From positions 1 through 24,668 of IMG/VR virus record IMGVR_UViG_2563366840_000014: DNA of 24,668 bases. One strand, given 5' to 3'. Position 1 is the first letter of the stretch; every line of letters begins with the position of its first letter. The stretch is from a virus. Lineage: Duplodnaviria > Heunggongvirae > Uroviricota > Caudoviricetes. A program made the translations under genes and the position numbers. Of the stretch, positions 1 through 21,627 are shown piece by piece. Under the pieces are notes generated by a model. It ran no database searches. It saw only the letters and a program-made list of their open reading frames with translations, and was not told where the DNA came from.

Positions 1-708
1 ATGTGGGTCAATAAGTATATTGACGATTGCACTGATGAGGATTTAAACGATCGTGACTTTATTGCATCAGTTGTTGACCGGGCTATTTTTCATTTCGCGA
101 TTAATAGTATATGTAATCTTGGGGATAATAAAGATGCAATGCCCATTGAACAATGTACTTTTGATGTAGAAACTAAGAATGACCTTCCCTCCACGGTTCA
201 GCTATTTTATGAGGAATCTAAGGATAATGAACCTTTAGCGAATATACATTTTCAAGCAATAGGTTCTGGTTTTTTAACGTTTGTTAATGCCTGCCAGGAA
301 CATGATGACAACAGCTTAAAATTATTTGCTTCGCTGTTAATTTCACTTTCATATTCTAGTGCCTACGCAGATTTATCAGAAACAGTGTATATTAATGAAA
401 ATAATGAGAGCTACCTGAAAGCTCAGTTTGAAAAATTATCTCAACGTGATATGAAGAAGTACCTGGGAGAGATGAAGCGTCTGGCTGATGGGGGAGAAAT
501 GAATTTTGATGGCTATCTGGATAAGATGTCACATCTGGTGAATGAAGGAACGCTCGATCCTGATATTTTAAGCAAAATGCGAGATGCTGCACCACAATTA
601 ATTAGCTTCGCGAAGTCGTTTGACCCAACCTCAAAGGAAGAGATTAAAATACTTACAGACACTTCTAAATTAATTTATGATTTGTTCGGGGTTAAATCGG
701 AGAAATAA
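1..708 (+). CDS. yjbM: Hypothetical protein, host flank (235 aa); matches the length and position of the E. coli gene immediately upstream of dusA
   Basis: Full ORF with ATG at 1 and stop at 706-708; AT-rich; followed by a hairpin terminator; lies upstream of a dusA promoter/5' fragment as yjbM does in E. coli K-12 (synteny and length recalled, sequence identity not verified). Confidence 0.55.
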   Translation: MWVNKYIDDCTDEDLNDRDFIASVVDRAIFHFAINSICNLGDNKDAMPIEQCTFDVETKNDLPSTVQLFYEESKDNEPLANIHFQAIGSGFLTFVNACQEHDDNSLKLFASLLISLSYSSAYADLSETVYINENNESYLKAQFEKLSQRDMKKYLGEMKRLADGGEMNFDGYLDKMSHLVNEGTLDPDILSKMRDAAPQLISFAKSFDPTSKEEIKILTDTSKLIYDLFGVKSEK

Positions 709-749
709 TATGTGAAGTTCTTCGATAGTATGGAAGGCATTATATAAAA

Positions 750-778
750 GGACCCAATATTTATTGGGTTCTTTTTTC
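750..778 (+). terminator. Rho-independent terminator after the 1-708 ORF
   Basis: Stem ACCCAAT / ATTGGGT with a TTT loop, followed by a run of six T. Confidence 0.6.
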
Positions 779-1070
779 TCTATCAATGCTATTAGCAGGG
801 AGATATATCACCAGAGTTTAATGTGTGATTTTTTATTTATCGTCGAACCTGGATTGTTTATCATTGGCCTTAACAAAGTTAACGGCTAATAAGATTATTT
901 CCATCACTTCGTGAGAGCTTCATGCCTTGAGAGGATCTCAATTTTCTTTTGCAATGAGACAGGCGCTTCCTGTTGTTATGGTATAGTACCCCGCTATTGA
1001 GCCTCCTGAACAGTGATGCTGAATAACATAACCCCATGATATATCGATAAAATAATCTCTACATTTGAAA

Positions 1071-1193
1071 ATGCACGGTAATTCTGAAATGCAAAAAATC
1101 AACCAAACCAGCGCAATGCCTGAAAAAACTGACGTTCACTGGAGTGGTCGGTTTAGCGTTGCACCAATGCTCGATAGGATGTACCGTTTTTGA
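1071..1193 (+). pseudogene. dusA: Displaced native 5' end of dusA (tRNA-dihydrouridine synthase A): first 35 codons, then an out-of-context tail and stop
   Basis: Translation MHGNSEMQKINQTSAMPEKTDVHWSGRFSVAPMLD matches the DusA N-terminus as I recall it, then reads RMYRF-stop instead of the conserved WTDRHCRYF; the break is at about 1173-1178. Confidence 0.75.
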
Positions 1194-1283
1194 AAAACAA
1201 ATAGTTATATACTTTGTGGGAGCCTATTGGGAACCCGGCGTTTTCATTTCAAGGTGTAATCCATACGCGGCTTAAGAATGAGA

Positions 1284-1289
1284 TATAAT
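1284..1289 (+). promoter_or_regulatory. Candidate -10 hexamer (TATAAT) for the 1319-1855 cargo gene
   Basis: Perfect TATAAT about 30 nt upstream of the ATG; the -35 element at 17-nt spacing is poor, so this is weak. Confidence 0.3.
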
Positions 1290-1318
1290 GCGACTTTTAG
1301 TGTTCCGCTTGAGAGGCC

Positions 1319-2051: not shown

Positions 2052-2225
2052 ATGAAAGATCAAAAAGCAACCAAGCCACAGGTTAAGTTCGACACAATGA
2101 AAGCATTCGCAGGTATGGGTGCTGCTGTTGAAGTTCTGATGAAGGCTGCTCCTAATGCGTTCACTCACGCTACTGTCTCTGGTAAAGAGCAGCAGGGTAA
2201 GCTTCGTCGTCGCAAAGCAGCATGA
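2052..2225 (+). CDS. Small hypothetical protein (57 aa), Lys/Ala-rich
   Basis: ATG at 2052 preceded by GGGAG; TGA at 2223-2225; immediately followed by a hairpin terminator; below the ORF-track length cutoff. Confidence 0.4.
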   Translation: MKDQKATKPQVKFDTMKAFAGMGAAVEVLMKAAPNAFTHATVSGKEQQGKLRRRKAA

Positions 2226-2244
2226 TCATAGCTGGTGCTTTTTG

Positions 2245-2272
2245 AAAACCCGCCTTCAGGCGGGTTTTTTCT
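2245..2272. terminator. Bidirectional rho-independent terminator between the convergent small ORF and xis
   Basis: AAAA, then stem CCCGCC / GGCGGG with loop TTCA, then TTTTTT; A-run on one side and T-run on the other. Confidence 0.7.
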
Positions 2273-2554
2273 TTAGTGATGTTCTTTGTCCTTCTGTTTG
2301 ACTGTTCTGACCTGTTCCCACTCGATACGTCCTTCTTCTCGCCTTTTGTCTATGTATTCCGCAAGATCCTGAATATTGATGCAACGTTTTGCTTTTTGTG
2401 ATGTGCCGATGCGATATGTTGGAACGGGCAACTTACAAGCGTTTGCTTTTGCTTCTGCCGTGGCTGGACTCATACCAAAGTACTTTTGGCTAACTGCTGA
2501 GAGTTCAATGTTTGGGGTATTGAATTCAGCCATCAGTAAAAACAAGGTGTTCAT
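2273..2554 (-). CDS. Excisionase-like DNA-binding protein (PrtN/pyocin-activator family, 93 aa)
   Basis: Start at internal Met (MNTLFLLMAEF...) with GGAGA RBS; small basic protein with ...IQDLAEYIDKRR... typical of this family; placement near the prophage end mirrors torI in KplE1. Confidence 0.7.
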   Translation of the reverse strand: MNTLFLLMAEFNTPNIELSAVSQKYFGMSPATAEAKANACKLPVPTYRIGTSQKAKRCINIQDLAEYIDKRREEGRIEWEQVRTVKQKDKEHH

Positions 2555-2590
2555 AATTTTCTCCATCAAAACCGGCTGCACCCGGGAAAA

Positions 2591-3166
2591 TTATAATTCT
2601 GTGCTGGTGGCAGGAATTAATTTCTGCCAGATAGCGGAAACATATTTTGCCTGATGACGGGCATCGGCCAGGGCGTTGTGCCGTTCGCCATCGAAAGGCA
2701 TGTCCATTTTGGGGTCGAATCCGATGGAACGCCCAAGCGTAACGATCGTGCGTACATCGTGGTCATTCCAGTATGCCCACGGGCAGATTTGTCCTGCTCG
2801 CTCATAAGCTCCACGTAAAATTACGTTGTCGAAGGTGGCTCCGTTACCCCAGACTTTTAAATATTTCGTATTGTCTGCGTGCCGGTTAATGAAATGATTT
2901 AGTTCTGAGAGAGCATCGCTGATCGACAAAGTATCATCAATACAGATTGCAGCTCGTGCTTCAGAGCTTTGTTTCAACCACCACAGGATGGTATCGCCGT
3001 CAGGTGTAGCTCCTTGCCCCATAGCACTTCCCAGGCTAACAACCGTATAGAATTCTTGTCCGATGTCTCCGGTTTCTGGAGTGAAGAACACCGCGCCAAT
3101 GGAAACGATCGGTGCATCCTTATTTTTCCCCATCGTCTCAAGGTCGATCATTAAGTTGTTCATCAC
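2591..3166 (-). CDS. DnaQ-like (DEDD) 3'-5' exonuclease
   Basis: N-terminal MIDLETMG... motif and conserved acidic residues; ATGA overlap with the upstream gene. Confidence 0.75.
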   Translation of the reverse strand: MMNNLMIDLETMGKNKDAPIVSIGAVFFTPETGDIGQEFYTVVSLGSAMGQGATPDGDTILWWLKQSSEARAAICIDDTLSISDALSELNHFINRHADNTKYLKVWGNGATFDNVILRGAYERAGQICPWAYWNDHDVRTIVTLGRSIGFDPKMDMPFDGERHNALADARHQAKYVSAIWQKLIPATSTEL

Positions 3167-4122
3167 TTCACCTCCTGCGGCGGTTCCGGTAGCGGCATCC
3201 AGTGGGTTACATTGCGGCTCTGTGTTTCGAAGAGCTCCTCACCATTGCGGACGACATCAAAAAACTCACCGTCCCGATATTGCGCATAAAGAACGAATGC
3301 GCCATCACATAAAATAATTACGTGCTGACCATCATCTGGCATTCGCTCACTACAGCTTATCCAACCATCCGGAGTTACCGGAGAGTTGCCGGGTTCTTTA
3401 ATGTGCAAGCGAGGCTCACCATCTTTTGGCTCAGGCCACTGGCGCTCCATGTTGATCTTCAATTTATCTTCCATAGCAGCGGTAATTTCAGCATCGCTGA
3501 TGCCAGCACGGCGCTGTGCATCCCACAACAGAAACTGCATATCAGCCCACTCGCTAAGATCGTCTGGTTCGGCTGCGGCTTCCAGTGCCTCTTTTGAGAG
3601 ATGTTTCAGCGGGCCAACTGGACCAACACAGCCAAACGTCTTATCTGACCATTCAGCATGGCGCTGCCGGATTAAATTGCGCAATTGAAGCGATGATCCG
3701 TTCTCCTCTGACAACTCTTCATGATTACTTGCAGGTTCGACACCATGAAGCATGGCGGCGCGGCAGGCATTCCAGCCTCTCACCTCTGCAATAGCGGCAA
3801 CAGCATCGACCGCGTACATTTTAAGAGGGTTGGGCATTGGTTTTTCTTCAGGTACTACTGGCACTGGAGGGGCGGCGTATACTTCAATTGTCCCATTATC
3901 AATAGGCCATTCCCCATCCTTGATGTAGTCACTTGTGCCATCGACCTGCTGTTCTGCAATGTGGAAAGCACCTATTGGTTTTGCTTCCAGTGATGCCAGT
4001 GCAATTTTTAATGCGGTAAGCATGTTGTTTTGATCTTCATCGAGTCCGAACGGTATTTCATCCCGTGCTGACTCAATGATGGTAATCGTGTTCTGTAACC
4101 ATTCTTTGGTAAGAGTATTCAT
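3163..4122 (-). CDS. DUF550 (MazG-like dNTP pyrophosphohydrolase) plus DUF551 domain protein
   Basis: 319-aa ORF tightly packed in the operon; domain assignment from recalled phage homologues. Confidence 0.6.
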   Translation of the reverse strand: MNTLTKEWLQNTITIIESARDEIPFGLDEDQNNMLTALKIALASLEAKPIGAFHIAEQQVDGTSDYIKDGEWPIDNGTIEVYAAPPVPVVPEEKPMPNPLKMYAVDAVAAIAEVRGWNACRAAMLHGVEPASNHEELSEENGSSLQLRNLIRQRHAEWSDKTFGCVGPVGPLKHLSKEALEAAAEPDDLSEWADMQFLLWDAQRRAGISDAEITAAMEDKLKINMERQWPEPKDGEPRLHIKEPGNSPVTPDGWISCSERMPDDGQHVIILCDGAFVLYAQYRDGEFFDVVRNGEELFETQSRNVTHWMPLPEPPQEVK

Positions 4123-4124
4123 AA

Positions 4125-4316
4125 CTATTTCACTTTAATCTCAATATTTCGCAGCTTTATGTCTACTGGTAGGTCTGACTTTCCTGTTAACGCTAATGCG
4201 AGATTTTCAGGAGTAATGAGAGCAGTTATTGTTTTCCCTATTGCCAGACGAATAATCATTCGTATCTCGCGATCGTCACATGCTCCCGGTCGAACAATTG
4301 ATATTTGTCCGATCAT
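4125..4316 (-). CDS. Small hypothetical protein (63 aa)
   Basis: Start at internal Met (MIGQISIVRPG...) one nt after the upstream stop; stop 3 nt before the next gene. Confidence 0.4.
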   Translation of the reverse strand: MIGQISIVRPGACDDREIRMIIRLAIGKTITALITPENLALALTGKSDLPVDIKLRNIEIKVK

Positions 4317-4317
4317 C

Positions 4318-4629
4318 TCACTCTCCTTTAGTGCGCAAATGGTTTTTCCAGCGGTTTTGCGCCGCGCTGCCCTTATCTCGGACTCCCTCTCTGGCAATTC
4401 CAGAAAATGAAAACAACACCACACGACGATTGCTAACTCTCAACCACTGGCTGGGATAGCAAAGTCTGTATACACGGGAAATAAGCATCTTTGCTTTACG
4501 GTTTTTCATCTTACTGCGTACCCTTTCTCTCGTCTGTTTTGCGCCACGGTGTGGTTTATATGAGTCCCAGTCTCCCCACGTTGCTTTCTCTGCCGCCTCA
4601 CGCAGTGCCTGATGGTCAATTTTGCTCAC
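4318..4629 (-). CDS. Hypothetical protein (103 aa), occupies the position of yfdT in KplE1
   Basis: GTG start with strong AAGGAGG RBS; GTGA overlap with the upstream gene stop; C-terminal half is low-complexity so the 3' part is uncertain. Confidence 0.5.
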   Translation of the reverse strand: MSKIDHQALREAAEKATWGDWDSYKPHRGAKQTRERVRSKMKNRKAKMLISRVYRLCYPSQWLRVSNRRVVLFSFSGIAREGVRDKGSAAQNRWKNHLRTKGE

Positions 4630-5156
4630 TGGTTGCCTCCTTTTCGAAGCTGGGCGGCGAACAAACGTACACCAGACGCTTCACTGCGTAGAAACTTAAC
4701 GGCATAATCAAAACCACCTCGTTCTGCGTCGTCTGCTCCGTTGTCGAGGTTATCTGCGTACATCTCTACCCCCTGCGCCCGTACTTCAGCCAGGAAAGCA
4801 TCGGTGGTTGGGGTTTCGCTGTGGTGTAGGGCATCGTTGATAATCATTGCAGCAACTCCGGCCTGCCCTGCATCCGTTACCGACACATGCTCAAGAGTTA
4901 CAGCCATTGCATGTTTCAGCCCCGCATTCTCCGCCGCCAGCGCCGAAAACTTCTCGTGTGCCAACTTAACAGCCGCATCAGCCTGCTTAATTGACTCAAT
5001 CGCTTTCTGTTGGTCTTCGGCCAGCGCCGCGCACTTGGCCTCAGCTTCAGCAAATTTACGCACCAGGTACTCAGCGTTTGTTTCGTTCACTTTCAGATCT
5101 CGCGGTACACATTTCCCGCGAAGAAACCCTTCCATTTCGAAAACATTCATGCGCAT
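4626..5156 (-). CDS. Ead/Ea22-like protein
   Basis: 176-aa ORF with an Ala/Glu-rich coiled-coil-like middle and a C-terminus resembling lambda Ea22-like proteins (recalled). Confidence 0.55.
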   Translation of the reverse strand: MRMNVFEMEGFLRGKCVPRDLKVNETNAEYLVRKFAEAEAKCAALAEDQQKAIESIKQADAAVKLAHEKFSALAAENAGLKHAMAVTLEHVSVTDAGQAGVAAMIINDALHHSETPTTDAFLAEVRAQGVEMYADNLDNGADDAERGGFDYAVKFLRSEASGVRLFAAQLRKGGNQ

Positions 5157-5683
5157 TTGCGTAACCCCGATAACTCGTTAAAACGTTCCATAAACATCCC
5201 GTAGGCATGGCCTGGTGACAGTGGAATAACTTTGAACATCTCTGTCGCCGGGATACCTTCCAGTACAGGCCAGAAAGAACCATCATCAAGCCCGAGATCG
5301 CGGCGTTCGGTTGCCAGCATAATGAGATCGGCATATTTCACTGGCGTGCTCATAACAGGAGGTAACCCGTATTTCTCACGGATTACGGCGTCTATTTTTT
5401 CTTCCATCCGTTTATAGTCAGGAAGAAGGCGTTTCAGTGGTGCGGGGATGTCCTGACAATATGCTTCTGTTGCATCATGCATTAACGCTTCAAAAGCAAA
5501 TTCCTGCGGTACCAGCTGGCTGCAAAGCACCGCATGTTGGGCGACGCTGTAGAAGTGTGAAAGATGTCCTGCAAAGCGACAGATATTTGAAAGGGAAACC
5601 GCGATATCGTTAATAACGATGTCGTCTTTATTTATCTTGTCATAATAAAAATGCTTCCCGGAAAAAGTTTTAATAAATGACAT
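5147..5683 (-). CDS. yfdR: HD-domain 5'-deoxynucleotidase (YfdR family, 178 aa)
   Basis: Start at internal Met with GGAG RBS; ...LMHDATEAY... HD-type motifs; length equals E. coli YfdR. Confidence 0.75.
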   Translation of the reverse strand: MSFIKTFSGKHFYYDKINKDDIVINDIAVSLSNICRFAGHLSHFYSVAQHAVLCSQLVPQEFAFEALMHDATEAYCQDIPAPLKRLLPDYKRMEEKIDAVIREKYGLPPVMSTPVKYADLIMLATERRDLGLDDGSFWPVLEGIPATEMFKVIPLSPGHAYGMFMERFNELSGLRKCA

Positions 5684-5776
5684 TTTGTTCTCCACGTATA
5701 TGCACTGCACCGCGCTGAATTCTGGTAAAAGGAAGCCCTCACCATTCGGTGATTATTGAGTTAATTACGTTTCCAT

Positions 5777-5798
5777 AAATGCCCCCGCAGGGGCATTT
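5777..5798. other. Perfect 9-bp hairpin in the yfdQ-yfdR intergenic region
   Basis: AAATGCCCC / GGGGCATTT with loop CGCA; no adjacent T-run on either strand. Confidence 0.5.
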
Positions 5799-5810
5799 GC
5801 AGTAATGAAA

Positions 5811-6635
5811 TCAGGCGGTGAAAGTACCAATAAAGGTTTCTACTTTGCTGTCTTTGAATTTCTCAACAAGCAGATCACGAAATTCGTTAGCCATTTCTTC
5901 CTGCACCGCTTCCAGCTGAATAATGCGCAGAACCAGTACAGGACGATCGCCAGTGATAATGCTGAGGCGTAATTTAAACGGACGTTCTTTCAGACCTTCA
6001 AACGGAACGCATTTAAATTCAAATGCCACTGGCATAATGTCTTTGGTCTTCGCTTCGACAGACTCCATCAGGGAGCGTTTTCCGCTGAAGTCATTGTCTT
6101 CAAAATCAGCGGTCTGGTTCGCTTCAATTGTGATTTTACGGATCGCCGCAGCCGCTTTGGTTGCCTGAATGGCGTCACCATTAGCATCAAAGCCCACAAG
6201 GTAGTCGGCCCAGTCTTCAATCCATTCTGCCAGTGACTTCTGGGAGTTACGCTCGCCATTAACAGACAACAGAGCAGAGAACGGTGCTGTCTTTTTCAGT
6301 TTGAGAGTGGCGGTGTTATCTGCGTGACCTGGTTCATCAATAGTACCCAGGTTAAGCACACTGACGGCTCGCATATTATCGGCATCGATAAAGCAGCGGG
6401 TGCCTTCATCTGCAAGATCTTTAGAATAACGGGTAAAGTCATCGATGCTGGCAGTGGAAAGTGCACCACGGAAACGGAAACGATTTAAATTAAATTTTTC
6501 CAGATCATGAATGCGGAAATTCTCAGGCAATGCCACAGCATCGGCACCAATCTTACTGATAATTTCATTAACACCCTGAGCAGAAATAAGGGCATGGATT
6601 TGATTAATTGCGGTTGAGTCTAAGTTCTGAGACAT
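5811..6635 (-). CDS. yfdQ: YfdQ family protein (DUF2303, 274 aa)
   Basis: Full ORF with GAGGA RBS; length and gene order match KplE1 yfdQ. Confidence 0.75.
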
Positions 6636-6700
6636 AATAAGTCCTCACTATATTAAGATATTCAGTGATGAGATAAATAATCAGTTAATTAAGAACGATA

Positions 6701-7063
6701 TTAATGACCTGCTGCGCGGAGTTTTCCGTCAGGTTCACCGGCAAGAGTCAGTAATTGTCCCTGGTCTTCCTGCAGAATAGTCAGGCGACCACCGCGATTG
6801 ACATACATCGGCGTTTCGGTGGTGTCTTCTTCGGAAATTTTCCCGCGGTTAGTCGGGCGAACATATGAGAGTTTGTGTTTGATTTTCACACGGTTCTCAT
6901 CAAATGGTTCGATTTCCAGGTTGAGTGAGACCTTACCTTTGGTTTTCGTGTTCATCACACCGGAAGCGACTTCACTGAGAACTGCGCCGATTTTGGTTTC
7001 AAATACGCCGCCGTCCAGCTCCCCGATAAATTCCTGCACGTTGGTACTGCGTTCGCTAGCCAT
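6701..7063 (-). CDS. yfdP: YfdP-like protein (120 aa)
   Basis: Start at internal Met (MASERSTNVQ...) with GAGGAG RBS; the upstream 106 codons of the listed ORF are GC-rich and Arg/Cys-rich with no RBS. Confidence 0.65.
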   Translation of the reverse strand: MASERSTNVQEFIGELDGGVFETKIGAVLSEVASGVMNTKTKGKVSLNLEIEPFDENRVKIKHKLSYVRPTNRGKISEEDTTETPMYVNRGGRLTILQEDQGQLLTLAGEPDGKLRAAGH

Positions 7064-7111
7064 TTTGCTGCTCCTCATCATATCGACCCTGCAAGGTCGG
7101 TTGGTTTCTCC

Positions 7112-7320
7112 ACAAAACAGAGAAGAACACCTGCGGTGGTAGCCGCCCGGATGGATTGGGTTATGAGCCCGTCGTCCGGTGATGCTCTTCTCTGTTTTGT
7201 AAAAAGAGCGGTACCAGCCGGAAGCAAGTGTACAAACTGGTACCGCGAGGACTACACACAGCATAAAGTTGTGGTGCCGGGTGCCTCCCGGTGCCTGGCG
7301 AAGGTTGCACACCAGGCGGG
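7112..7320. ncRNA. GC-rich cluster of stable hairpins upstream of yfdP (candidate structured RNA or leader)
   Basis: 15-bp perfect stem 7112-7126 / 7186-7200; 10-bp stem 7208-7217 / 7237-7246; shorter stems at 7278-7290 and 7293-7317; overlapping ORFs on both strands look non-coding. Confidence 0.35.
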
Positions 7321-7500
7321 TGGGTATCCACAGAAGGTCGACTGTCAGCCTCAACCTTAACCCGCGTGCGCTGAGCCGCATTCACCACAACGCTAAGGAT
7401 TCTCTCTGGTTGAAAATACTTAGCTGTTATGTGCCTGTCTTTTCACCACTTCAGGCTCGGTGGTATCCTTTTAAGCCCGTATACATAAAAGGAAAATAAA

Positions 7501-7746
7501 ATGACTTTTGATGAAAAAGAACTTGATAATGCAATTAATAAAATCATCGTAACGTCGCTCTTTTCCTGTCTCAGCGACACTCAGCAGAAACAGTTCTACG
7601 AATCGGCTTTCAACATGATCGAGCGTTGTTGTTTCTGCGATGCCGACGAGTTACCTGAAAAAATCAGGAAACAGTTGGCTGATGCTCTTCGAGTGCGACT
7701 TTCTGACCAATTTTCTGAAATGTGCTCTCCGAATTTGGACAAATAG
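7501..7746 (+). CDS. Hypothetical small protein (81 aa), AT-rich, opposite in direction to the early-left operon
   Basis: AGGA RBS 9 nt before the ATG; imperfect hairpin downstream at about 7755-7785; 3' end overlaps the convergent 7664-7939 ORF. Confidence 0.45.
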   Translation: MTFDEKELDNAINKIIVTSLFSCLSDTQQKQFYESAFNMIERCCFCDADELPEKIRKQLADALRVRLSDQFSEMCSPNLDK

Positions 7747-15572: not shown

Positions 15573-15600
15573 CCTCGCTTCGGCGGGGTTTTTGCTTTTC
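15573..15600 (+). terminator. Rho-independent terminator (tR'-like)
   Basis: Imperfect GC stem CCTCGC / GCGGGG around TTCG loop, followed by TTTTTGCTTTTC. Confidence 0.6.
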
Positions 15601-15612
15601 TGGAGGTCAATA

Positions 15613-15870
15613 ATGCAGGGCGAAAAGCAGCAGCCATATTTTTTTAACCCTGGTATGACTGTTGAACAGCTTGAAGACTGGCTGGAGCAGCAAAAGCTTC
15701 ATCTAAGCCGCTATAACCGTCTGGTAAAAGAAAAAGCAGAGCTTGAAGAACGGCTCAGTGATATTTCTGTGGAAATTGAACGAATGTCTGCTGGTGGTTT
15801 TAACGGAAAGTTGAGTTTCCCTTGGGAGTCAAGTTCGCTTCTGAGAAATCATCAACAGGGTAGTGTTTGA
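15613..15870 (+). CDS. Hypothetical protein (85 aa) between tR' and the lysis genes
   Basis: Start at internal Met just after the terminator with GGAGG RBS at 6-nt spacing; charged, helical-looking sequence. Confidence 0.5.
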   Translation: MQGEKQQPYFFNPGMTVEQLEDWLEQQKLHLSRYNRLVKEKAELEERLSDISVEIERMSAGGFNGKLSFPWESSSLLRNHQQGSV

Positions 15871-15949
15871 CTGAAATAATAAACAGAATGTCATTAAGAT
15901 CCCTTCCCCTCATATCTGAGAGGACCAACAGCAATTAAGAGGGGGCTAA

Positions 15950-16336
15950 ATGTCCGATCCGATTTCCGGTACTGGGCTGGCTGGTGGTGCCCTGACGGGG
16001 GCCAGTGTTTATGGACTGCTGACCGGAACTGATTACGGCGTTGTATTTGGCGCATTTGCAGGGGCTGTATTCTACATAGCAACAGCAGCAGATCTGAGTG
16101 CATCGCGCCGACTGGCATATTTTATCGTGTCATATATTGCCGGGATTCTTTGCTCTGGGTTGGTTGGCTCCAAGCTGGCGAACTTGACCGGATACAGTGA
16201 TAAACCTCTGGATGCTATTGGTGCCGTAATCGTCTCTGCTTTAGCCGTTAAAATCCTGACGTTCCTGAATAATCAGGATATCGGCTCGCTGGTGGCGCTC
16301 ATAACGCGCCGGGGAGGTTCAGGTGGAGCTAAATGA
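15950..16336 (+). CDS. Putative holin / lysis membrane protein (128 aa)
   Basis: Gly/Ala-rich hydrophobic segments; first gene of the lysis cassette; AGAGGGGG RBS. Confidence 0.5.
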   Translation: MSDPISGTGLAGGALTGASVYGLLTGTDYGVVFGAFAGAVFYIATAADLSASRRLAYFIVSYIAGILCSGLVGSKLANLTGYSDKPLDAIGAVIVSALAVKILTFLNNQDIGSLVALITRRGGSGGAK

Positions 16337-16604
16337 CCCGACAGCAACTATAAATGCGCTGTTATGTGCTTGTGTTGTTATTACTCTGATGTTTTATCGT
16401 CGTGGTGATTCGCGGCATCGTCCTTGGGTTTCACGTTTAGCCTGGCTGATTACTGTTACATACAGTGCTGTTCCGTTGGCCTATCTCTGTGGGATTTATC
16501 CCCATTCCTCATGGCCCATTATCGTGGCGAACACTATTTTTCTTTCCGTGCTGGTGGCCGTAAGAGGCAACGTTGCACGTCTGGTTGATCATCTGAGGCA
16601 CTAA
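16323..16604 (+). CDS. Second small membrane protein of the lysis cassette (holin or antiholin-like)
   Basis: Hydrophobic 93-aa ORF overlapping the upstream gene end and abutting the endolysin start. Confidence 0.4.
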   Translation: MELNDPTATINALLCACVVITLMFYRRGDSRHRPWVSRLAWLITVTYSAVPLAYLCGIYPHSSWPIIVANTIFLSVLVAVRGNVARLVDHLRH

Positions 16605-17218
16605 TGAACCAACAATTATTTCAAAAGGCGGCTGGTATTAGCGCCGGGCTGGCTGCGCGCTGGTTTCCGCACATTGATGCGGCGATGAAGGAATTCGGCA
16701 TTACAGCACCAGCGGATCAGGCAATGTTTATTGCTCAGGTAGGCCATGAGTCGATGGGGTTTAGCGCCGTAGTTGAAAATTTTAACTACACACCATCTGC
16801 GCTTGTGGCGACGTTCGGAAAGAGGATCACACAGCAGCAGGCTGATGCCCTTGGCAGAACATCCGGACATGCAGCTCGTCAGGATGCTATTGCCAATCTT
16901 GTGTATAGCAACCGGCTGGGTAACAAAGCACCCGGTGATGGCTGGAAATATCGCGGTAGAGGATTAATTCAAATCACTGGCCTCCATAATTATCGCATCT
17001 GTGGCGCGGCGCTGAAGTTAGATCTGGTGACTTCACCTGAACAACTGGAGCAGGATCTACAGGCCGCGCGCTCAGCTGCATGGTTCTACACATCTAAAGG
17101 CTGCATGGTCTACGGTGCCGATATTAATCGTGTTACGCGCATCATTAACGGCGGTCTGAACGGTATTGAGGATCGTAAGATTCGATACAACAAGGCGCGG
17201 GCGGCGCTGCTGGTATGA
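16604..17218 (+). CDS. Endolysin, glycoside hydrolase family 19 (chitinase-like)
   Basis: ...VGHESMGF... and ...YRGRGLIQITG..NY... motifs typical of GH19 phage endolysins. Confidence 0.8.
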   Translation: MNQQLFQKAAGISAGLAARWFPHIDAAMKEFGITAPADQAMFIAQVGHESMGFSAVVENFNYTPSALVATFGKRITQQQADALGRTSGHAARQDAIANLVYSNRLGNKAPGDGWKYRGRGLIQITGLHNYRICGAALKLDLVTSPEQLEQDLQAARSAAWFYTSKGCMVYGADINRVTRIINGGLNGIEDRKIRYNKARAALLV

Positions 17219-17676
17219 AGACGAGTTATTGGGCGCTCATTTTAACGTTTATTGCTTGTATTGCTGGTGGTCTTGTCTGGTCAGCTAATCATTACCACAA
17301 TAAAGCCATTGAATACAAAAAACAGCGCGATGAAAACGCTATGGCATTAGATTCGGCTATGGCGACGATCTCTGATATGCAGAAGCGTCAACGTGACGTA
17401 GCAGAACTCGATGCCAGATATACAAAGGAGCTTGCTGATGCTAACGCCACTATCGAAAGTCTCCGTGCTGATGTTTCTGCTGGTCGTAAGCGCCTGCAAG
17501 TCTCCGCCACCTGTGCAAAGTCAACGACCGGAGCCAGCAGCATGGGCGATGGAGAAAGCCCAAGACTTACAGCAGATGCTGAACTCAATTATTACCGTCT
17601 CCGAAGTGGAATAGACAGGATAACCGCGCAGGTTAACTACCTGCAGGAGTACATCAGGGCTCAGTGCCTGAAATAA
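17215..17676 (+). CDS. Rz-like i-spanin
   Basis: N-terminal transmembrane segment followed by coiled-coil-like sequence; contains an embedded lipoprotein ORF in the +1 frame. Confidence 0.75.
   Translation: MKTSYWALILTFIACIAGGLVWSANHYHNKAIEYKKQRDENAMALDSAMATISDMQKRQRDVAELDARYTKELADANATIESLRADVSAGRKRLQVSATCAKSTTGASSMGDGESPRLTADAELNYYRLRSGIDRITAQVNYLQEYIRAQCLK
17438..17614 (+). CDS. Rz1-like o-spanin lipoprotein embedded in Rz
   Basis: Signal peptide with lipobox LVVSAC and Pro-rich mature region; AAGGAG RBS 7 nt before the ATG at 17438. Confidence 0.65.
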   Translation: MLTPLSKVSVLMFLLVVSACKSPPPVQSQRPEPAAWAMEKAQDLQQMLNSIITVSEVE

Positions 17677-17707
17677 TTTTTTTGCAAATCACAAAGTCCA
17701 TTTAATG

Positions 17708-17731
17708 AGCCTCGCGATGCGGGGCTTTTTT
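17708..17731 (+). terminator. Rho-independent terminator after the lysis cassette
   Basis: Stem AGCCTCGC / GCGGGGCT with loop GAT, followed by TTTTTT. Confidence 0.6.
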
Positions 17732-17878
17732 ATGTCCGCAGTAAACGCGCTTCACACGCGCGACTTATGAACACAGAACCTTTCAGGATGACCCTTGAGG
17801 ATGCCGGTTTGGTGATCGGTACCTTTCTGTGGGCCGGAATCCTGTGTGACAAGGTTCATCACTAAAAGGTAATTACTG

Positions 17879-18409
17879 ATGAAGTACCCAACAGTTATTG
17901 TCAATGGTGTGTCCGTTCGTGTTGATGAGGATGGACGCTACAACTTAAACGATCTCCATGCAGCAGCAGTTGCAAATGGAGAGGCTACAGAGCAACAGCG
18001 CCCAAGCCAGTTTTTGCGTAGCGCGCAGATAAAACGCTTCATAAAAGCACTGGAGGCCAAAGTGCAAAAAAGCACTTTGGAACAAATTCAGCCACTTAAA
18101 ATAATCAAAGGTGGTGCAGAACCAGGTGTGTGGGGTGTTGAACTTCTGGCAATCAGATATGCAGCATGGATTAAGCCGGAATTTGAAATCGAAGTTTATG
18201 AAGTTTTCAAAACGGTTGTCCGTCTCGGCGTTGGCGCAATGTCCCGTCTGAATAGAATCGATCACATCATCAATACTGAAACCAAAGCGATAAGCCAGTG
18301 CGCAAGCCAAATGGCTAAGTGGGGCGTTGGTGGGCGAAAAAGATTGCTTCATGTTGCACGTGAGAGAGCGGCAAATGAAGTGCAAATGTATTTGCCCGGA
18401 ATGGTGTGA
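17879..18409 (+). CDS. KilA-N domain protein (second paralog)
   Basis: N-terminus (VIVNGVSVRVDEDGRYNLNDLHAAAVA...) is clearly paralogous to the 12890-13699 protein. Confidence 0.65.
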   Translation: MKYPTVIVNGVSVRVDEDGRYNLNDLHAAAVANGEATEQQRPSQFLRSAQIKRFIKALEAKVQKSTLEQIQPLKIIKGGAEPGVWGVELLAIRYAAWIKPEFEIEVYEVFKTVVRLGVGAMSRLNRIDHIINTETKAISQCASQMAKWGVGGRKRLLHVARERAANEVQMYLPGMV

Positions 18410-18724
18410 TTTCGCAGGTTAATCCAGTTTTTGCATTACGGCAGTACAGCGAAACAACCCAAGCCAGTAAGTGGGGAAATAACACTGGCAGCCACTGAAA
18501 GATGAACCTCCAGCCTTATGGCAAAAAAGATTCTTTGTGGTGGCGGACTGATGGAAAGACATCGGTTATTGCAGAGGCCATTCAATGAGTGGTCTCGACA
18601 ATGGCTTATACCCTGCACGGGATAACTTAACTGATATCCCTTTTAACGGATAAACGGAGCCAATAATGGCAGAGAATGTCGGCATTATGGCAGTGAAATT
18701 TGGATAAATCGGAGATTAGTACAT

Positions 18725-19075
18725 ATGCCGCCACGAATCCCAAAAGCCTGCCGTGTTCGCGGTTGCCGCCATACCACCACAGATCCGTCAGGCTATTGTG
18801 AAAGCCACAAAAGCGAAGGCTGGAAGCAATACAAACCTGGACAATCCCGTCATCAGCGCGGCTACGGTTCGAAGTGGGACAGTATCCGCGTGCGCATATT
18901 GAAGCGTGACAAAGGCCTGTGTCAGTTATGTCTGCGTGCTGGTGTGGTGCGTGAGGCGAAAACCGTTGACCACATCATTCCTAAAGCGCATGGCGGCACT
19001 GATGCCGACAGTAATCTGCAGAGTCTGTGCTGGCCCTGCCATAAGGCGAAGACGGCCCGTGAACGGTTAAAGTGA
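18725..19075 (+). CDS. HNH endonuclease (terminase-associated)
   Basis: Cys-rich N-terminus and ...VDHIIPKAHGGTDADSNLQSLCWPCH... HNH motif; sits directly upstream of terS. Confidence 0.8.
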   Translation: MPPRIPKACRVRGCRHTTTDPSGYCESHKSEGWKQYKPGQSRHQRGYGSKWDSIRVRILKRDKGLCQLCLRAGVVREAKTVDHIIPKAHGGTDADSNLQSLCWPCHKAKTARERLK

Positions 19076-19101
19076 TAATAATTCTCAACTGTCTGAGGGG
19101 A

Positions 19102-19161
19102 GGGGCGGGTCAAATCCCTGTGACCTGACGTCTTCCGGACTGCCCGCCCCATCGTTTTTTT
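19102..19161 (+). other. GC-rich compound hairpin with T-run (terminator and/or cos-region candidate)
   Basis: GGGGCGGG (19102-19109) pairs with CCCGCCCC (19143-19150); inner palindromes GGTCA...TGACC and GACGTC; followed by seven T. Confidence 0.4.
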
Positions 19162-19200
19162 ATACCCGCGAAAAATGAAATTTAACCAGGAGTGCCGCAT

Positions 19201-19686: not shown

Positions 19687-19699
19687 AAATCATCGAATC

Positions 19700-21433: not shown

Positions 21434-21444
21434 CTGAGGTAATT

Positions 21445-21627
21445 ATGATCATGCTGATTCTCGCGCCTCTGGTGGGCGTGCTGGGGGCGCTTTTGCTGGC
21501 GTATGGTGCCTGGCTGATTTATCCCCCGGCGGGGTTTGTTGTTGCCGGGGCGTTGTGCCTGTTCTGGTCGTGGCTGGTGGCGCGATATCTCGACCGTACA
21601 CAGTCGTCTGTCGGCGGAGGTAAATAG
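21445..21627 (+). CDS. Small hydrophobic protein (60 aa) between terL and portal
   Basis: GAGG RBS; two predicted hydrophobic helices; stop overlaps the portal GTG start. Confidence 0.4.

What the first reader, a model, noticed from the sequence alone, without database searches (positions are those of the whole stretch)
2591..5683. Early-left operon enriched in nucleotide- and DNA-end-processing enzymes
A single minus-strand operon encodes a DEDD 3'-5' exonuclease, a DUF550 (MazG-like NTP pyrophosphohydrolase) plus DUF551 protein, and an HD-domain 5'-deoxynucleotidase (YfdR-like), interspersed with small unknown ORFs joined by overlapping start and stop codons. Together they could remodel the nucleotide pool or destroy nucleotide second messengers, which would be an anti-defence role; this is hypothesis only.
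Basis: inference. Interest (0 to 1): 0.55.

Follow-up and report, generated by a model that had tools for sequence, protein, structure and literature searches.

The report
Mosaic accessory early-left prophage operon
The three enzyme genes are real, but this is the ordinary, already-annotated accessory end of the early-left operon of a common E. coli lambdoid prophage, assembled from independently shuffling gene cassettes, with no evidence that they act together against bacterial defences.

Summary
Observation confirmed. On the minus strand, 2591-5683 encodes a DEDDh 3'-5' exonuclease (PF16473, 32% identical to T4 DexA), a DUF550+DUF551 fusion (DUF550 is now Pfam 'dATP/dGTP pyrophosphohydrolase', the MazZ family) and an HD protein 98% identical to E. 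coli K-12 YfdR. Three small ORFs lie between them, joined by overlapping or nearly abutting stop and start codons.

The region is the distal part of a pL-type operon: pL-like promoter, orf91, yfdP, yfdQ, yfdR, ea-like genes, exonuclease, xis, terminator. The prophage is of CPS-53/mEp460/LLS type and lies beside host yjbM-zur. An identical 6-kb stretch is in a public E. coli-type assembly.

The enzymes do not travel together. Of 78 viral contigs with this DUF550, 4 carry YfdR and 9 the exonuclease. Of 64 YfdR contigs, 2 carry DUF550; 40 carry the exonuclease, always with this xis type. The region is a mosaic of three cassettes.

Published work gives other roles: YfdR binds DnaA, and yfdQ+yfdR+(yfdS or yfdT) blocks oriC initiation; DUF550/MazZ hydrolyses dGTP/dATP; DexA homologues scavenge DNA or defend against hmC phage.

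The anti-defence reading is untested and only weakly supported by analogy. Low interest; already known.

The parts
8057..8086 (-). pL-like sigma-70 promoter (TTGACA-18-TACATT), just downstream of the cI-like repressor gene (8173-8826, minus strand); presumed start of the early-left operon
   Evidence: 10/12 match. The same hexamers occur in the pR-like site at 8861-8890 on the plus strand. Repressor and Cro identified. Consensus match only; function is inferred.
7664..7939 (-). First early-left ORF (91 aa, phrog_3195, unknown function)
7199..7421 (-). STnc100-family sRNA match in the long leader upstream of yfdP
   Evidence: RF02076, 49.1 bits against a gathering score of 47, E 5.8e-08.
6701..7063 (-). 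yfdP homologue (120 aa)
   Evidence: 97.5% identical to K-12 YfdP; phrog_204; PF27127 on the identical contig.
5811..6635 (-). yfdQ homologue (DUF2303, 274 aa)
   Evidence: PF10065 E 6.5e-93; 272/274 identical to K-12 YfdQ; related solved structure 9o7m.
5147..5683 (-). yfdR homologue: HD-domain 5'-deoxynucleotidase and DnaA-binding protein (178 aa)
   Evidence: 174/178 identical to K-12 YfdR; phrog_318 E 4e-111; PDB 2gz4 E 2.6e-13 with H...HD...D aligned; 24% identical to SH-Ab 15497 DatZ.
4626..5150 (-). Chimeric ORF (174 aa from the ATGA-overlapping start; 176 aa from the upstream ATG): aa 1-45 match the YfdS N-terminus (93%), the remainder is alanine-rich and P22 EaE-like
   Evidence: YfdS 93% over 45 aa; EaE 33% over 138 aa; mosaic breakpoint at 5021; gene call in L164.
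4318..4629 (-). 103-aa ORF: Ead/Ea22 N-terminal ~25-35 aa fused to a basic phrog_1380-type peptide (aa 41-103)
   Evidence: PF13935 E 6.3e-07; phrog_1380 E 1.3e-33 and phrog_368/250 for the N-terminus; GTGA overlap with the upstream ORF.
4125..4316 (-). 63-aa ORF (phrog_1222), homologue of mEp460 gp28; occupies the same position as P22 eaI but is not similar to it
   Evidence: 90% identical to mEp460 gp28; no alignment to EaI.
3163..4122 (-). EaA-like fusion protein (319 aa): variable helical N-terminal region, MazZ-type DUF550 domain, DUF551 domain
   Evidence: 78% identical to P22 EaA over the DUF550 domain; same N-terminus/DUF550/DUF551 architecture; exact protein is P0001, E. coli KTE119.
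3385..3672 (-). DUF550 / MazZ-type all-alpha NTP pyrophosphohydrolase domain (aa 151-246), with E178-x-x-E181 and E191-x-x-D194 motifs
   Evidence: PF04447 E 5.6e-43; residues invariant across 7 diverse members including SH-Ab 15497 MazZ; profile hit to PDB 7ody S-2L MazZ E 4.9e-15.
3175..3366 (-). DUF551 domain (aa 253-316)
   Evidence: PF04448 E 1.4e-21; this is the only well-predicted part of the AF2 model, an all-beta region with pLDDT about 66-83; weak similarity to K-12 YfdS.
2591..3163 (-). DEDDh (DnaQ-like) 3'-5' exonuclease, Rv2179c-like/DexA family (190 aa)
   Evidence: PF16473 E 8e-75; PDB 8kel (sequence aligns to T4 DexA) E 6.6e-10; 32% identical to T4 DexA over the full length with D7, E9, D112, H162, D167 conserved; always found with this xis type in related contigs.
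2273..2554 (-). PrtN-type excisionase (93 aa from the ATG with a GGAG ribosome-binding site)
   Evidence: PF11112 E 4.2e-23; phrog_1300; 99% identical to mEp460 gp25.
2244..2269 (.). G+C-rich hairpin flanked by an A-run and a T-run between the convergent xis and plus-strand genes; likely bidirectional terminator ending the operon
   Evidence: 11-bp stem, called on the plus strand; sequence. Activity on the minus strand is inferred.

Best explanation
This is the xis-proximal, accessory part of the early-left (pL) operon of a CPS-53/mEp460/LLS-type lambdoid prophage of E. coli. It is equivalent in position to the lambda exo-xis region and the P22 ea region.

It is a mosaic of three cassettes that assort independently:
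1. yfdP-yfdQ-yfdR plus the first 45 codons of yfdS.
2. An ea-type cassette: an EaE-like ORF, an Ead/Ea22 fragment, a 63-aa ORF, and an EaA-like protein carrying a MazZ-type DUF550 domain and a DUF551 domain.
3. A DexA-like DEDDh exonuclease locked to a PrtN-type xis.

Proposed mechanism. Repressor loss, or infection, lets pL transcription read through all of these genes, and translation is coupled through overlapping or abutting stop/start codons. YfdR binds DnaA domain I. Together with YfdQ and a DUF551-type partner it damps host oriC initiation, and it also has weak dNMP phosphatase activity. The EaA-like enzyme converts purine dNTPs to dNMP + PPi. The exonuclease trims 3' ends or oligonucleotides to dNMPs. 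The likely net effect is a transient brake on host chromosome replication and a reshaping of deoxynucleotide flux during early lytic development or the lysis-lysogeny decision. The genes behave as separately selected accessory functions, not as one machine.

Shown here: gene identities, catalytic residues, operon layout, mosaicism and lack of co-occurrence.
From the literature on near-identical or homologous proteins: DnaA binding and initiation inhibition, MazZ chemistry, DexA chemistry.
Inferred: pL-driven co-expression, activity of these particular proteins, and the physiological outcome.
For: Layout:
- cI-like repressor, Cro and CII-like genes lie at 8173-9731, and a pL-like promoter lies at 8086-8057.
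- Minus-strand genes run uninterrupted to xis and a terminator hairpin.

Identity with studied genes:
- YfdR 98%, YfdQ 99% and YfdP 97.5% identical to K-12 CPS-53.
- In K-12, yfdQ + yfdR + (yfdS or yfdT) on a multicopy plasmid inhibits oriC initiation, and purified YfdR binds DnaA through Phe46 (PMC4776307).

DUF550:
- 81% identical to the P22 EaA core.
- Profile hit to S-2L MazZ (7ody) at E 4.9e-15, with conserved E178/E181/E191/D194/D201/K220/N224/W229.
- MazZ chemistry is described in PMC8342488 and PMC12884076.

Exonuclease: DexA homology and an intact DEDDh set.

Mosaicism:
- Blocks at 2202-3208, 3982-4322 and 5021-7246 match mEp460 (99%, 84% and 97% identity); the segments between them, apart from an 81-bp match at 4580-4660, do not.
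- No phage record and no complete E. coli genome covers 80% or more of the region.

Analogy: the lambda exo-xis region is pL-driven, dispensable, and linked to inhibition of host DNA replication (PMC10834534).
Against: - No experiment on this prophage. The K-12 phenotype needs overexpression, and deleting yfdQRST had no phenotype.
- K-12 YfdS/YfdT are not conserved here. Only the YfdS N-terminal 45 aa and an unrelated DUF551 domain (23% identity) are present, so the minimal inhibitory gene set may be incomplete.
- YfdR's nucleotide affinities are reported as low.
- Substrate specificity of this DUF550 is unknown. The guanine-O6-contacting N20 of S-2L MazZ does not appear to be conserved (my reading).
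- Promoter and terminator assignments are consensus matches only; the promoter count in the region is not above the shuffled expectation.
- A hairpin in the 127-bp yfdQ-yfdR gap could attenuate transcription.
Confidence: 0.55

Rival explanations
1. Anti-defence module. The MazZ-like enzyme and the YfdR 5'-dNMPase, fed by the exonuclease, would remove deoxynucleotide-derived alarm signals or their precursors (dAMP to dITP in Kongming; m6-dAMP for PUA-Cal-HAD), or other nucleotide messengers, and so protect the phage from abortive-infection systems.
For: - T5 Dmp, which has the same chemistry as YfdR (dNMP to dN), is a proven anti-Kongming factor that works by depleting dAMP (bioRxiv 10.1101/2024.12.20.629578).
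- m6-dAMP from degraded host DNA triggers PUA-Cal-HAD (bioRxiv 10.64898/2026.01.15.699771).
- The genes sit in an early, dispensable, highly mosaic region, which is typical of counter-defence loci.
- The catalytic residues of all three enzymes are intact.
Against: - The three enzymes do not co-occur beyond chance juxtaposition.
- YfdR is not homologous to T5 Dmp.
- Kongming is triggered mainly by phage dNMP kinases, and PUA-Cal-HAD by phage-driven host DNA degradation. No dNMP kinase or host-DNA-degrading nuclease was found among the 30 window ORFs scanned.
- No member of these families is known to cleave cyclic oligonucleotides.
- YfdR has low nucleotide affinity and a documented protein target, DnaA.
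Confidence: 0.12
2. DNA-end and nucleotide housekeeping for a recombination-module-less, Chi-rich phage. The DnaQ-like exonuclease would process 3' ends of phage replication or recombination intermediates, or of excision products given its tight linkage to xis. The MazZ-like and HD enzymes would sanitise or balance the dNTP pool for phage DNA synthesis.
For: - The window has 15 Chi sites against 0.9 expected, 13 of them on one strand, and no recognisable Rec genes in the early-left operon. This matches the 'LLS functional type' (PMC12315714).
- The same paper notes DnaQ-like 3'-5' nucleases inside lambdoid Rec modules.
- The exonuclease co-occurs 40/40 with this xis type.
- MazG-family enzymes are classic house-cleaning NTPases (established knowledge).
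Against: - 3'-5' exonucleases generally inhibit rather than promote homologous recombination.
- The exonuclease-xis linkage may be only physical adjacency within one 1-kb mosaic block.
- The authors of PMC12315714 judged that yfdPQR are unlikely to be hidden recombination genes.
- No functional data exist.
Confidence: 0.15
3. Prophage-encoded defence or superinfection exclusion. The DexA-like exonuclease would act like E. coli EcD ('HREX') and digest incoming modified (5hmC) phage DNA. MazZ-like plus HD would form a two-step dNTP-depleting effector (dNTP to dNMP to dN), as in defence systems that pair a MazG-like or calcineurin-like phosphoesterase with a HAD phosphatase.
For: - An E. coli DexA homologue protects against T4 by degrading 5hmC DNA (PMC12153337).
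- The window enzyme keeps the catalytic residues and the W152 equivalent (W132).
- MazG-like phosphoesterases replace the calcineurin effector in some PUA-HAD defence systems.
- There is a weak PADLOC hit to a Cas-associated DEDDh model.
Against: - By the paper's own criteria the window enzyme is not EcD-like. It keeps the DexA S87/D90 'tetramer' residues (S80/D83) and has Ser at the 5hmC-recognising D169 position.
- The genes lie in a repressor-controlled lytic operon, so they should be silent in the lysogen (inference).
- No PADLOC hit for the HD or DUF550 proteins.
Confidence: 0.08

Closest known systems
E. coli K-12 cryptic prophage CPS-53 (KplE1) yfdP-yfdQ-yfdR-yfdS-yfdT-torI cluster
   Same: - YfdP, YfdQ and YfdR are 97.5-99% identical, and gene order and intergenic regions match (96.8% DNA identity over window 5021-7082).
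- The gene after yfdR starts with the same 45 residues as YfdS.
- xis lies at the prophage end with no adjacent int. I recall from memory that KplE1 has the same arrangement (torI/intS).
   Different: - K-12 has YfdS (DUF551) and YfdT, then TorI.
- The window replaces them with EaE-like and Ead fragments, a 63-aa ORF, a DUF550-DUF551 protein, a DexA-like exonuclease and a PrtN-type xis.
Phage mEp460 early-left region (gp25-gp35), and the LLS/ST64B-type lambdoid phages without a Rec module
   Same: - The xis+exonuclease block is 98.8% identical, and the yfdPQR block 96.8%.
- No Red/Erf/Gam-type genes; O-like-only replication module; many Chi sites.
   Different: - In mEp460 the middle segment carries a DUF551-only protein (gp27) and four other small genes. 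It has no DUF550 domain.
Salmonella phage P22 ea region (eaE-eaF-eaD-eaI-eaA-eaG-eaC-xis)
   Same: - Same position, between the early-left functions and xis.
- EaA (317 aa) has the same helical N-terminus / DUF550 / DUF551 architecture, with 78-81% identity in the DUF550 domain.
- EaE-like and Ead-like pieces are present.
   Different: - P22 has erf/abc recombination genes upstream, and no yfdPQR or exonuclease.
- The small ORF upstream of eaA (EaI) is unrelated to the window's 63-aa ORF.
- The domain spacing in EaA differs.
MazZ of Z-genome phages (S-2L MazZ, PDB 7ODY; SH-Ab 15497 DUF5664-DUF550) together with DatZ
   Same: - Same family for the DUF550 domain: profile E 4.9e-15 to 7ODY, and 40% identity to the SH-Ab MazZ core with the ExxE/ExxD acidic residues conserved.
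- YfdR is a distant HD relative of DatZ (24% identity). The window therefore carries a 'MazZ-like + DatZ-like' pair.
   Different: - No PurZ, DpoZ or DUF5664 was found among the window ORFs scanned.
- YfdR is a monophosphatase and DnaA binder, not a dATP triphosphohydrolase.
- The pair is not syntenically conserved.
- Z-phage DUF550 proteins form their own monophyletic group (PMC12884076).
T4 DexA and E. coli EcD (HREX)
   Same: DEDDh fold family, 32% identity to DexA over the full length, with the catalytic residues and W152 conserved.
   Different: - Shorter than DexA (190 vs 227 aa; loops missing).
- Lacks the D169 equivalent.
- Unlike EcD, it keeps the D90 equivalent.
- Encoded next to xis in a temperate phage rather than in a lytic-phage early region.
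Phage T5 Dmp (anti-Kongming 5'-deoxynucleotidase)
   Same: Same nominal reaction as YfdR (dNMP to deoxynucleoside + Pi), and early expression.
   Different: No sequence similarity (best E 3.3) and no shared Pfam family. It is an analogue, not a homologue.

Membership tests
DEDDh (DnaQ-like) 3'-5' exonuclease, Rv2179c-like/DexA family (PF16473) | Full-length match to the family model above the curated cut-off | tested here: met
   250.8 bits against a cut-off of 27; aa 3-180 on model positions 1-177 of 177.
DEDDh (DnaQ-like) 3'-5' exonuclease, Rv2179c-like/DexA family (PF16473) | Exo I/II/III catalytic residues D-E-D-H-D | tested here: met
   D7, E9, D112, H162, D167 are invariant in alignments with T4 DexA and nine prophage homologues. 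The paper lists DexA D7, E12, D119, H186, D191; four of these align with window D7, D112, H162 and D167, while the conserved glutamate of the DxE motif sits at position 9 in both T4 DexA and the window protein.
DEDDh (DnaQ-like) 3'-5' exonuclease, Rv2179c-like/DexA family (PF16473) | 3'-5' exonuclease activity and substrate (DNA or RNA) | not testable with these tools
   Needs a biochemical assay.
HREX / EcD-type defensive DexA homologue (PMC12153337) | Loss of the tetramer-forming Asp (DexA D90 changed to Ala) | tested here: not met
   The window protein has D83 (and S80, equivalent to S87) at these positions.
HREX / EcD-type defensive DexA homologue (PMC12153337) | 5hmC-recognition pair: Trp (W152) plus an acidic residue (D169) | tested here: not met
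   W132 is conserved, but the D169 equivalent is S146.
MazZ / DUF550 dATP-dGTP pyrophosphohydrolase (PF04447; MazG-HisE-like all-alpha NTP-PPase) | Full-length domain match above the curated cut-off | tested here: met
   145.6 bits against a cut-off of 23; model positions 1-96 of 97.
MazZ / DUF550 dATP-dGTP pyrophosphohydrolase (PF04447; MazG-HisE-like all-alpha NTP-PPase) | Metal-binding acidic motifs (ExxE ... ExxD) and the Lys/Asn/Trp of the nucleotide pocket | tested here: met
   E178, E181, E191, D194, D201, K220, N224, R227, W229 are invariant in 7 diverse members including SH-Ab 15497 MazZ. They line up with S-2L MazZ E35, D53, D60, K76, N80, W85.
MazZ / DUF550 dATP-dGTP pyrophosphohydrolase (PF04447; MazG-HisE-like all-alpha NTP-PPase) | Relationship to a solved MazZ structure | tested here: met
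   Profile of alignment A3 against the PDB: 7ody_A 'MazG-like pyrophosphohydrolase (MazZ)', E 4.9e-15, whole domain. My own AF2 model was too poor to use (pLDDT 50).
Z-genome cluster (PurZ + DatZ + MazZ) | Presence of PurZ (adenylosuccinate-synthetase homologue) next to MazZ and DatZ | tested here: not met
   No such ORF among the 30 window ORFs scanned. YfdR is only 24% identical to DatZ.
YfdR (CPS-53 HD-domain 5'-deoxynucleotidase / DnaA-binding protein) | Orthology to K-12 YfdR, with yfdP-yfdQ upstream | tested here: met
   174/178 identical, with the same flanking genes.
YfdR (CPS-53 HD-domain 5'-deoxynucleotidase / DnaA-binding protein) | HD-superfamily metal ligands H...HD...D | tested here: met
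   H49, H69-D70 and D119 align with the corresponding residues of Atu1052 (2gz4). The Pfam YfbR-like score is slightly below the cut-off (24.1 vs 25.9).
YfdR (CPS-53 HD-domain 5'-deoxynucleotidase / DnaA-binding protein) | Binding to DnaA domain I, and inhibition of oriC initiation together with YfdQ and YfdS or YfdT | not testable with these tools
   Known for the K-12 proteins (PMC4776307). Here YfdS/YfdT are replaced, so the minimal gene set may be incomplete.
T5 Dmp-type anti-Kongming 5'-deoxynucleotidase | Homology to T5 Dmp | tested here: not met
   BLASTP best E 3.3; Dmp has no Pfam family in common.
Lambdoid accessory early-left region (lambda exo-xis / P22 ea) | Position between the immunity/early-left functions and xis, on the pL strand, with Ea-family genes | tested here: met
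   Gene map; Ead/Ea22 N-terminus; EaA and EaE homology.
Lambdoid accessory early-left region (lambda exo-xis / P22 ea) | Dispensable for growth, and highly mosaic between relatives | tested here: inconclusive
   Mosaicism is shown. Dispensability cannot be tested computationally.
'LLS functional type' lambdoid phage (no Rec module, Chi-rich; PMC12315714) | No SSAP, Exo or anti-RecBCD genes in the early-left operon, and an over-abundance of oriented Chi sites | tested here: met
   No such family hits. 15 Chi sites against 0.9 expected, 13 of them on the plus strand. Only part of the prophage lies within the window.

The most novel reading that the evidence does not exclude
The MazZ-like DUF550 enzyme and the DatZ-related YfdR phosphatase, fed by the DexA-like exonuclease, could form a 'signal-scrubbing' counter-defence. 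It would strip the infected cell of purine deoxynucleotide alarm molecules and their precursors (dITP/dIMP/dAMP for Kongming-type systems, m6-dAMP for PUA-Cal-HAD-type systems). The idea would extend the T5 Dmp principle to temperate coliphages, using unrelated enzyme folds acting at two successive steps.
Probability: 0.06. Interest if true: 0.6.

Novelty: already known. Interest (0 to 1): 0.18.

Why it matters
As it stands, little. It is a correctly read but ordinary accessory region, and its gene families are already named in RefSeq annotation (5'-deoxynucleotidase YfdR, dATP/dGTP pyrophosphohydrolase domain protein, 3'-5' exonuclease). Matching sequence is present in 4117 of 5426 complete E. 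coli genomes.

Three points are useful:
1. P22 EaA-type proteins are MazZ-family enzymes living in ordinary A-containing temperate phages. Their substrate and purpose there remain unmeasured.
2. The yfdQ/yfdR cassette, shown in K-12 to inhibit DnaA-dependent initiation only when overexpressed, sits here in an apparently intact, inducible prophage. That would be a better system for asking what it does for a phage.
3. If any of these enzymes removed dNMP- or dNTP-derived immune signals, the list of nucleotide-based counter-defences would grow. Nothing found here favours that.

Tried and rejected
1. Homology between YfdR and the anti-Kongming enzyme T5 Dmp: none. The link is by chemistry only.
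2. PADLOC scan of ten operon proteins: only a weak Cas-associated DEDDh hit for the exonuclease.
3. NCBIfam: no hits except a sub-threshold 5'-deoxynucleotidase match.
4. AlphaFold2 of the 319-aa fusion with a 26-sequence alignment. The model was poor (mean pLDDT 50.3, pTM 0.26; only the DUF551 part exceeded 70), so I ran no fold search. A sequence-profile search of the PDB answered the fold question instead.
5. Single-sequence PDB search with the fusion protein: no hit.
6. Conserved functional triad (HD + DUF550 + exonuclease): rejected by co-occurrence counts in 158 related viral contigs.
7. The window exonuclease as the published defensive EcD type: rejected on the paper's own residue criteria.
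8. Hidden Z-genome (2-aminoadenine) pathway: rejected, because there is no PurZ and YfdR is not DatZ.
9. The Gifsy-1 'eaa homologue' paper (PMC9879122): irrelevant to function.
10. Zimmerman et al. 2008 (the primary source for YfdR nucleotidase activity) could not be read. The statement about low affinity is taken second-hand from PMC4776307.
11. No tRNA gene in the window.

Full report
**1. What is in the sequence**

The six-frame ORF list and the minus-strand sequence show an uninterrupted run of minus-strand genes from about 7939 down to 2273. Within the reported interval the genes, in transcription order, are:
- 5147-5683: HD-domain protein of 178 aa, starting at an ATG preceded by GGAG.
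- 4626-5150: 174-aa ORF.
- 4318-4629: 103-aa ORF.
- 4125-4316: 63-aa ORF.
- 3163-4122: 319-aa protein.
- 2591-3163: 190-aa protein.
- 2273-2554: excisionase, which follows the interval.

The junctions are ATGA, GTGA, TGAgATG, TAGttATG and TGATG. That means 4-nt overlaps, 1-2-nt gaps and a 1-nt overlap, the usual signature of translational coupling. Gene calls on an identical public contig give the same boundaries (L164).

**2. Family assignments**

*Exonuclease.* It matches PF16473 (Rv2179c-like 3'-5' exoribonuclease domain) over its whole length at E 8e-75 and phrog_255 'exonuclease'.
- Its only relatives with solved structures are 8kel and 8ken, labelled 'Exodeoxyribonuclease'.
- Aligned with T4 DexA taken from NC_000866, it is 32% identical end to end. 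The DEDDh residues are D7, E9, D112, H162 and D167, and they are also invariant in nine other prophage homologues.

*The 319-aa protein.* It carries PF04447 at aa 151-246 (E 5.6e-43) and PF04448/DUF551 at aa 253-316 (E 1.4e-21). Its variable N-terminal ~135 aa has no Pfam hit.
- PF04447 is the former DUF550, now named 'dATP/dGTP pyrophosphohydrolase'.
- An alignment of seven diverse DUF550 domains includes the biochemically characterised MazZ of Acinetobacter phage SH-Ab 15497. It shows invariant E178, E181, D188, E191, D194, D201, K220, N224, R227 and W229.
- A profile of that alignment hits PDB 7ODY, cyanophage S-2L 'MazG-like pyrophosphohydrolase (MazZ)', at E 4.9e-15 over the whole domain.
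- My AlphaFold model of the fusion was too poor to use (pLDDT 50).

*HD protein.* It is 174/178 identical to E. coli K-12 YfdR. Its upstream neighbours are 99% and 97.5% identical to YfdQ and YfdP. The HD ligands align with Atu1052, PDB 2gz4. The Pfam YfbR-like hit is marginally sub-threshold.

**3. Genomic setting**

The window is part of a lambdoid prophage.
- It has a cI-like S24 repressor (8173-8826, minus strand), Cro, a CII-like protein, an O-like initiator, RusA, a Q-like antiterminator, holin, endolysin and terminase.
- A TTGACA-18-TACATT promoter-like site lies on the minus strand at 8086-8057, just past the repressor gene. An identical pair of hexamers lies on the plus strand at 8861-8890. 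These look like pL and pR, but they are consensus matches only.
- A G+C-rich hairpin flanked by A- and T-runs (2244-2269) closes the operon after xis.
- An identical 6-kb stretch occurs in a public assembly. The 319-aa protein is 'hypothetical protein A1Y7_04718' of E. coli KTE119.
- On that contig, beyond xis come two small plus-strand genes and then the host genes: a DUF2713 protein (which I identify as yjbM), an 84-aa ORF, a Fur-family gene (zur), a CsbD-family gene and a MatE-family gene (dinF). Window ORF 1-708 is therefore host DNA, and the prophage ends between 709 and 1318.
- No integrase lies next to xis. From memory, CPS-53/KplE1 has the same arrangement.

**4. It is a mosaic, not a conserved enzyme set**

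Neither the phage collection nor 5426 complete E. coli genomes hold a place covering 80% or more of the region, although 4117 genomes match parts of it.

Blastn against mEp460, K-12 and a second contig resolves blocks:
- 2202-3208 (xis + exonuclease): 98.8% identical to mEp460.
- 3982-4322: 84% identical to mEp460.
- 5021-7246 (first 45 codons of the ORF after yfdR, then yfdR, yfdQ, yfdP and the leader): 96.8% identical to mEp460. K-12 CPS-53 matches 5021-7082 at the same identity.
- The DUF550-DUF551 body and the two ORFs at 4323-5020 are different in mEp460.

Breakpoints fall inside genes. The 174-aa ORF has the YfdS N-terminus (93% over 45 aa) and then an EaE-like remainder. The 103-aa ORF has an Ead/Ea22 N-terminus and then a phrog_1380 peptide.

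I quantified linkage in viral contigs.
- Among 78 contigs carrying a close DUF550 (76-100% identity), YfdR is present in 4, the exonuclease in 9 and a DUF551 domain in 44.
- Among 64 YfdR contigs with enough downstream sequence, YfdQ is present in 60, YfdP in 55, the downstream ORF in 58 and DUF551 in 48. The exonuclease is present in 40 and this xis type in the same 40. DUF550 is present in only 2, neither with the exonuclease.

The real linkage groups are therefore yfdPQR(+S N-terminus), exonuclease+xis, and a freely exchanging ea-type middle. The triad seen in the window recurs only in a handful of near-identical E. coli-type contigs.

**5. What each cassette is known to do**

(a) *yfdQRST.* A plasmid carrying yfdQ, yfdR and either yfdS (DUF551) or yfdT suppresses over-initiation mutants and inhibits oriC initiation in wild-type cells. 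[quoted passage not shown] Deletion has no phenotype. [quoted passage not shown]

(b) *DUF550/MazZ.* S-2L MazZ converts (d)GTP to (d)GMP. The SH-Ab 15497 DUF5664-DUF550 protein hydrolyses dGTP and dATP. In Z-genome phages these enzymes feed PurZ and clear dATP (PMC8342488, PMC12884076). The window has no PurZ.
- Its DUF550 is 81% identical to the core of P22 EaA, and the whole protein has EaA's architecture.
- The domain occurs in 523 phage records, mostly Klebsiella phages (the listed examples being ~50-kb genomes such as Webervirus), plus Mycobacterium phages and others.
- YfdR is a distant relative of DatZ (24% identity). That is an amusing parallel, but not a conserved pairing.

(c) *DexA family.* T4 DexA scavenges host DNA and acts in intron homing. 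An E. coli homologue, EcD, was reported in 2025 to protect against T4 by digesting 5hmC DNA (PMC12153337). By that paper's criteria the window enzyme is not EcD-like. It keeps the S87/D90 equivalents (S80/D83), keeps W152 (W132), and has Ser at the D169 position. The family is present in 1410 phage records.

(d) *Region as a whole.* It corresponds in position to the lambda exo-xis region and the P22 ea region. Both are pL-driven and dispensable, and in lambda the region is linked to inhibition of host DNA replication and to the lysis-lysogeny balance (PMC10834534).
- A 2025 survey describes lambdoid phages that lack a Rec module, are rich in Chi sites, and often carry yfdR-yfdQ-yfdP in the early-left operon. 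It also notes DnaQ-like nucleases in Rec-module positions (PMC12315714).
- The window fits that description: 15 Chi sites against 0.9 expected, 13 of them on the plus strand.

**6. Interpretation**

The best-supported reading is that 2591-5683 is an accessory stretch of an early-left operon. Its genes were assembled by recombination and are selected individually. The plausible common theme is manipulation of host replication and deoxynucleotide flux early after induction or infection. This includes a DnaA brake by YfdR/YfdQ, possibly helped by a DUF551 protein. It also includes purine dNTP to dNMP conversion by the EaA-like enzyme, weak dNMP to deoxynucleoside conversion by YfdR, and 3'-end or oligonucleotide trimming by the exonuclease.

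I give this about 0.55. Gene identities, active sites, layout and mosaicism are shown here. The activities come from homologues. Co-expression from pL and the physiological outcome are inferred.

Defences that use dNMP-derived signals exist, and T5 Dmp defeats one of them with YfdR-like chemistry. Against it:
- Dmp is unrelated to YfdR.
- The known triggers of those systems (a phage dNMP kinase; massive host DNA degradation) have no counterpart among the 30 window ORFs scanned.
- The enzymes do not co-occur.
- None of these families is known to attack cyclic nucleotide messengers.

I put it at about 0.12. Two further rivals are DNA-end and nucleotide housekeeping for a Rec-less, Chi-rich phage (0.15) and a lysogen-protective defence role (0.08).

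**7. Novelty and score**

Every component is a named family. The YfdP/Q/R proteins are near-identical to studied K-12 genes, an identical 6-kb stretch is in a public assembly, and the type of region is textbook lambdoid biology. The particular three-enzyme combination is rare, but that rarity is itself the evidence that it is incidental.

Novelty: already known. Interest: 0.18.

The most novel reading not excluded is a two-step 'alarm-nucleotide scrubbing' counter-defence, with a probability of about 0.06.

Noticed in passing
window 2603-21936 (15 sites; e.g. 2603, 9191, 9434, 12783, 13932, 14203, 15790, 15980, 16288, 16550, 17263, 21573, 21929 on the plus strand; 11887 and 14332 on the minus strand): Chi (GCTGGTGG) is about 17-fold over-represented: 15 sites against 0.9 expected, with at most 3 in any of 100 shuffles. 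It is also strongly oriented (13 of 15 on the plus strand). No Red/Erf/Gam/Abc genes are recognisable in the early-left operon. This matches the recently described 'LLS functional type' of Chi-rich, Rec-module-less lambdoid phages (PMC12315714).
   Followed up: partly
window 1-1318: ORF 1-708 (plus strand) is a DUF2713 protein, which I identify as the host gene yjbM. On identical contigs it is followed by an 84-aa ORF and by Fur-family (zur), CsbD-family and MatE-family (dinF) genes. The prophage boundary (att site) must therefore lie within 709-1318. No integrase lies next to xis at this end; from memory, KplE1/CPS-53 likewise has int and xis at opposite prophage ends.
   Followed up: partly
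window 7199-7421 (-): Rfam match to the sRNA family STnc100 (RF02076; 49.1 bits against a gathering score of 47; full model). It lies inside the long untranslated leader between the first early-left ORF and yfdP. The 226-aa ORF listed at 6701-7381 is probably an artefactual extension of yfdP across this element.
   Followed up: no
window 5811-6635 (-): The PDB holds an entry named 'YfdQ Protein' (9o7m) with 36 chains of a 274-aa relative (E 7.9e-45). This suggests that DUF2303/YfdQ forms a very large homo-oligomer. I found no paper describing it in the library.
   Followed up: partly
window 7501-7746 (+) and 7664-7939 (-): Two conserved small ORFs (phrog_3311 and phrog_3195) converge and overlap by 83 bp at the start of the early-left operon. 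A plus-strand gene embedded antisense to pL transcription could be a lysogen-expressed moron.
   Followed up: no
window 8057-8086 (-) and 8861-8890 (+): The pL-like and pR-like promoters flanking the repressor gene have identical hexamers and spacing (TTGACA-18-TACATT).
   Followed up: no
window 3208, 3982, 4322-4329, 5021: Mosaic breakpoints relative to mEp460, K-12 and a sister contig fall inside coding sequences. Examples are after codon 45 of the YfdS-like ORF and after the ~25-residue Ead/Ea22 N-terminus. The results are chimeric proteins with conserved N-termini, which may preserve translational coupling to the upstream gene.
   Followed up: partly
window 11475-12161 (+): A 228-aa ORF matches PAPS-reductase-like / DNA-methyltransferase phrogs (phrog_33262 E 2.2e-96; phrog_111 E 1.6e-90) in the early-right region. 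It is a possible DNA-modification gene.
   Followed up: no
window 12890-13699 (+) and 17879-18409 (+): Two ORFs match the same phrog_129 family ('transcriptional regulator'). One lies in the nin-like region and one lies after the lysis genes.
   Followed up: no
window 5684-5810 (-): The 127-bp yfdQ-yfdR spacer holds a perfect 9-bp hairpin (AAATGCCCC-TGC-GGGGCATTT) with no U-tract. The spacer has the same length in K-12 and lies within the 96.8%-identical DNA block. It could be an attenuator or a processing site within the operon.
   Followed up: no
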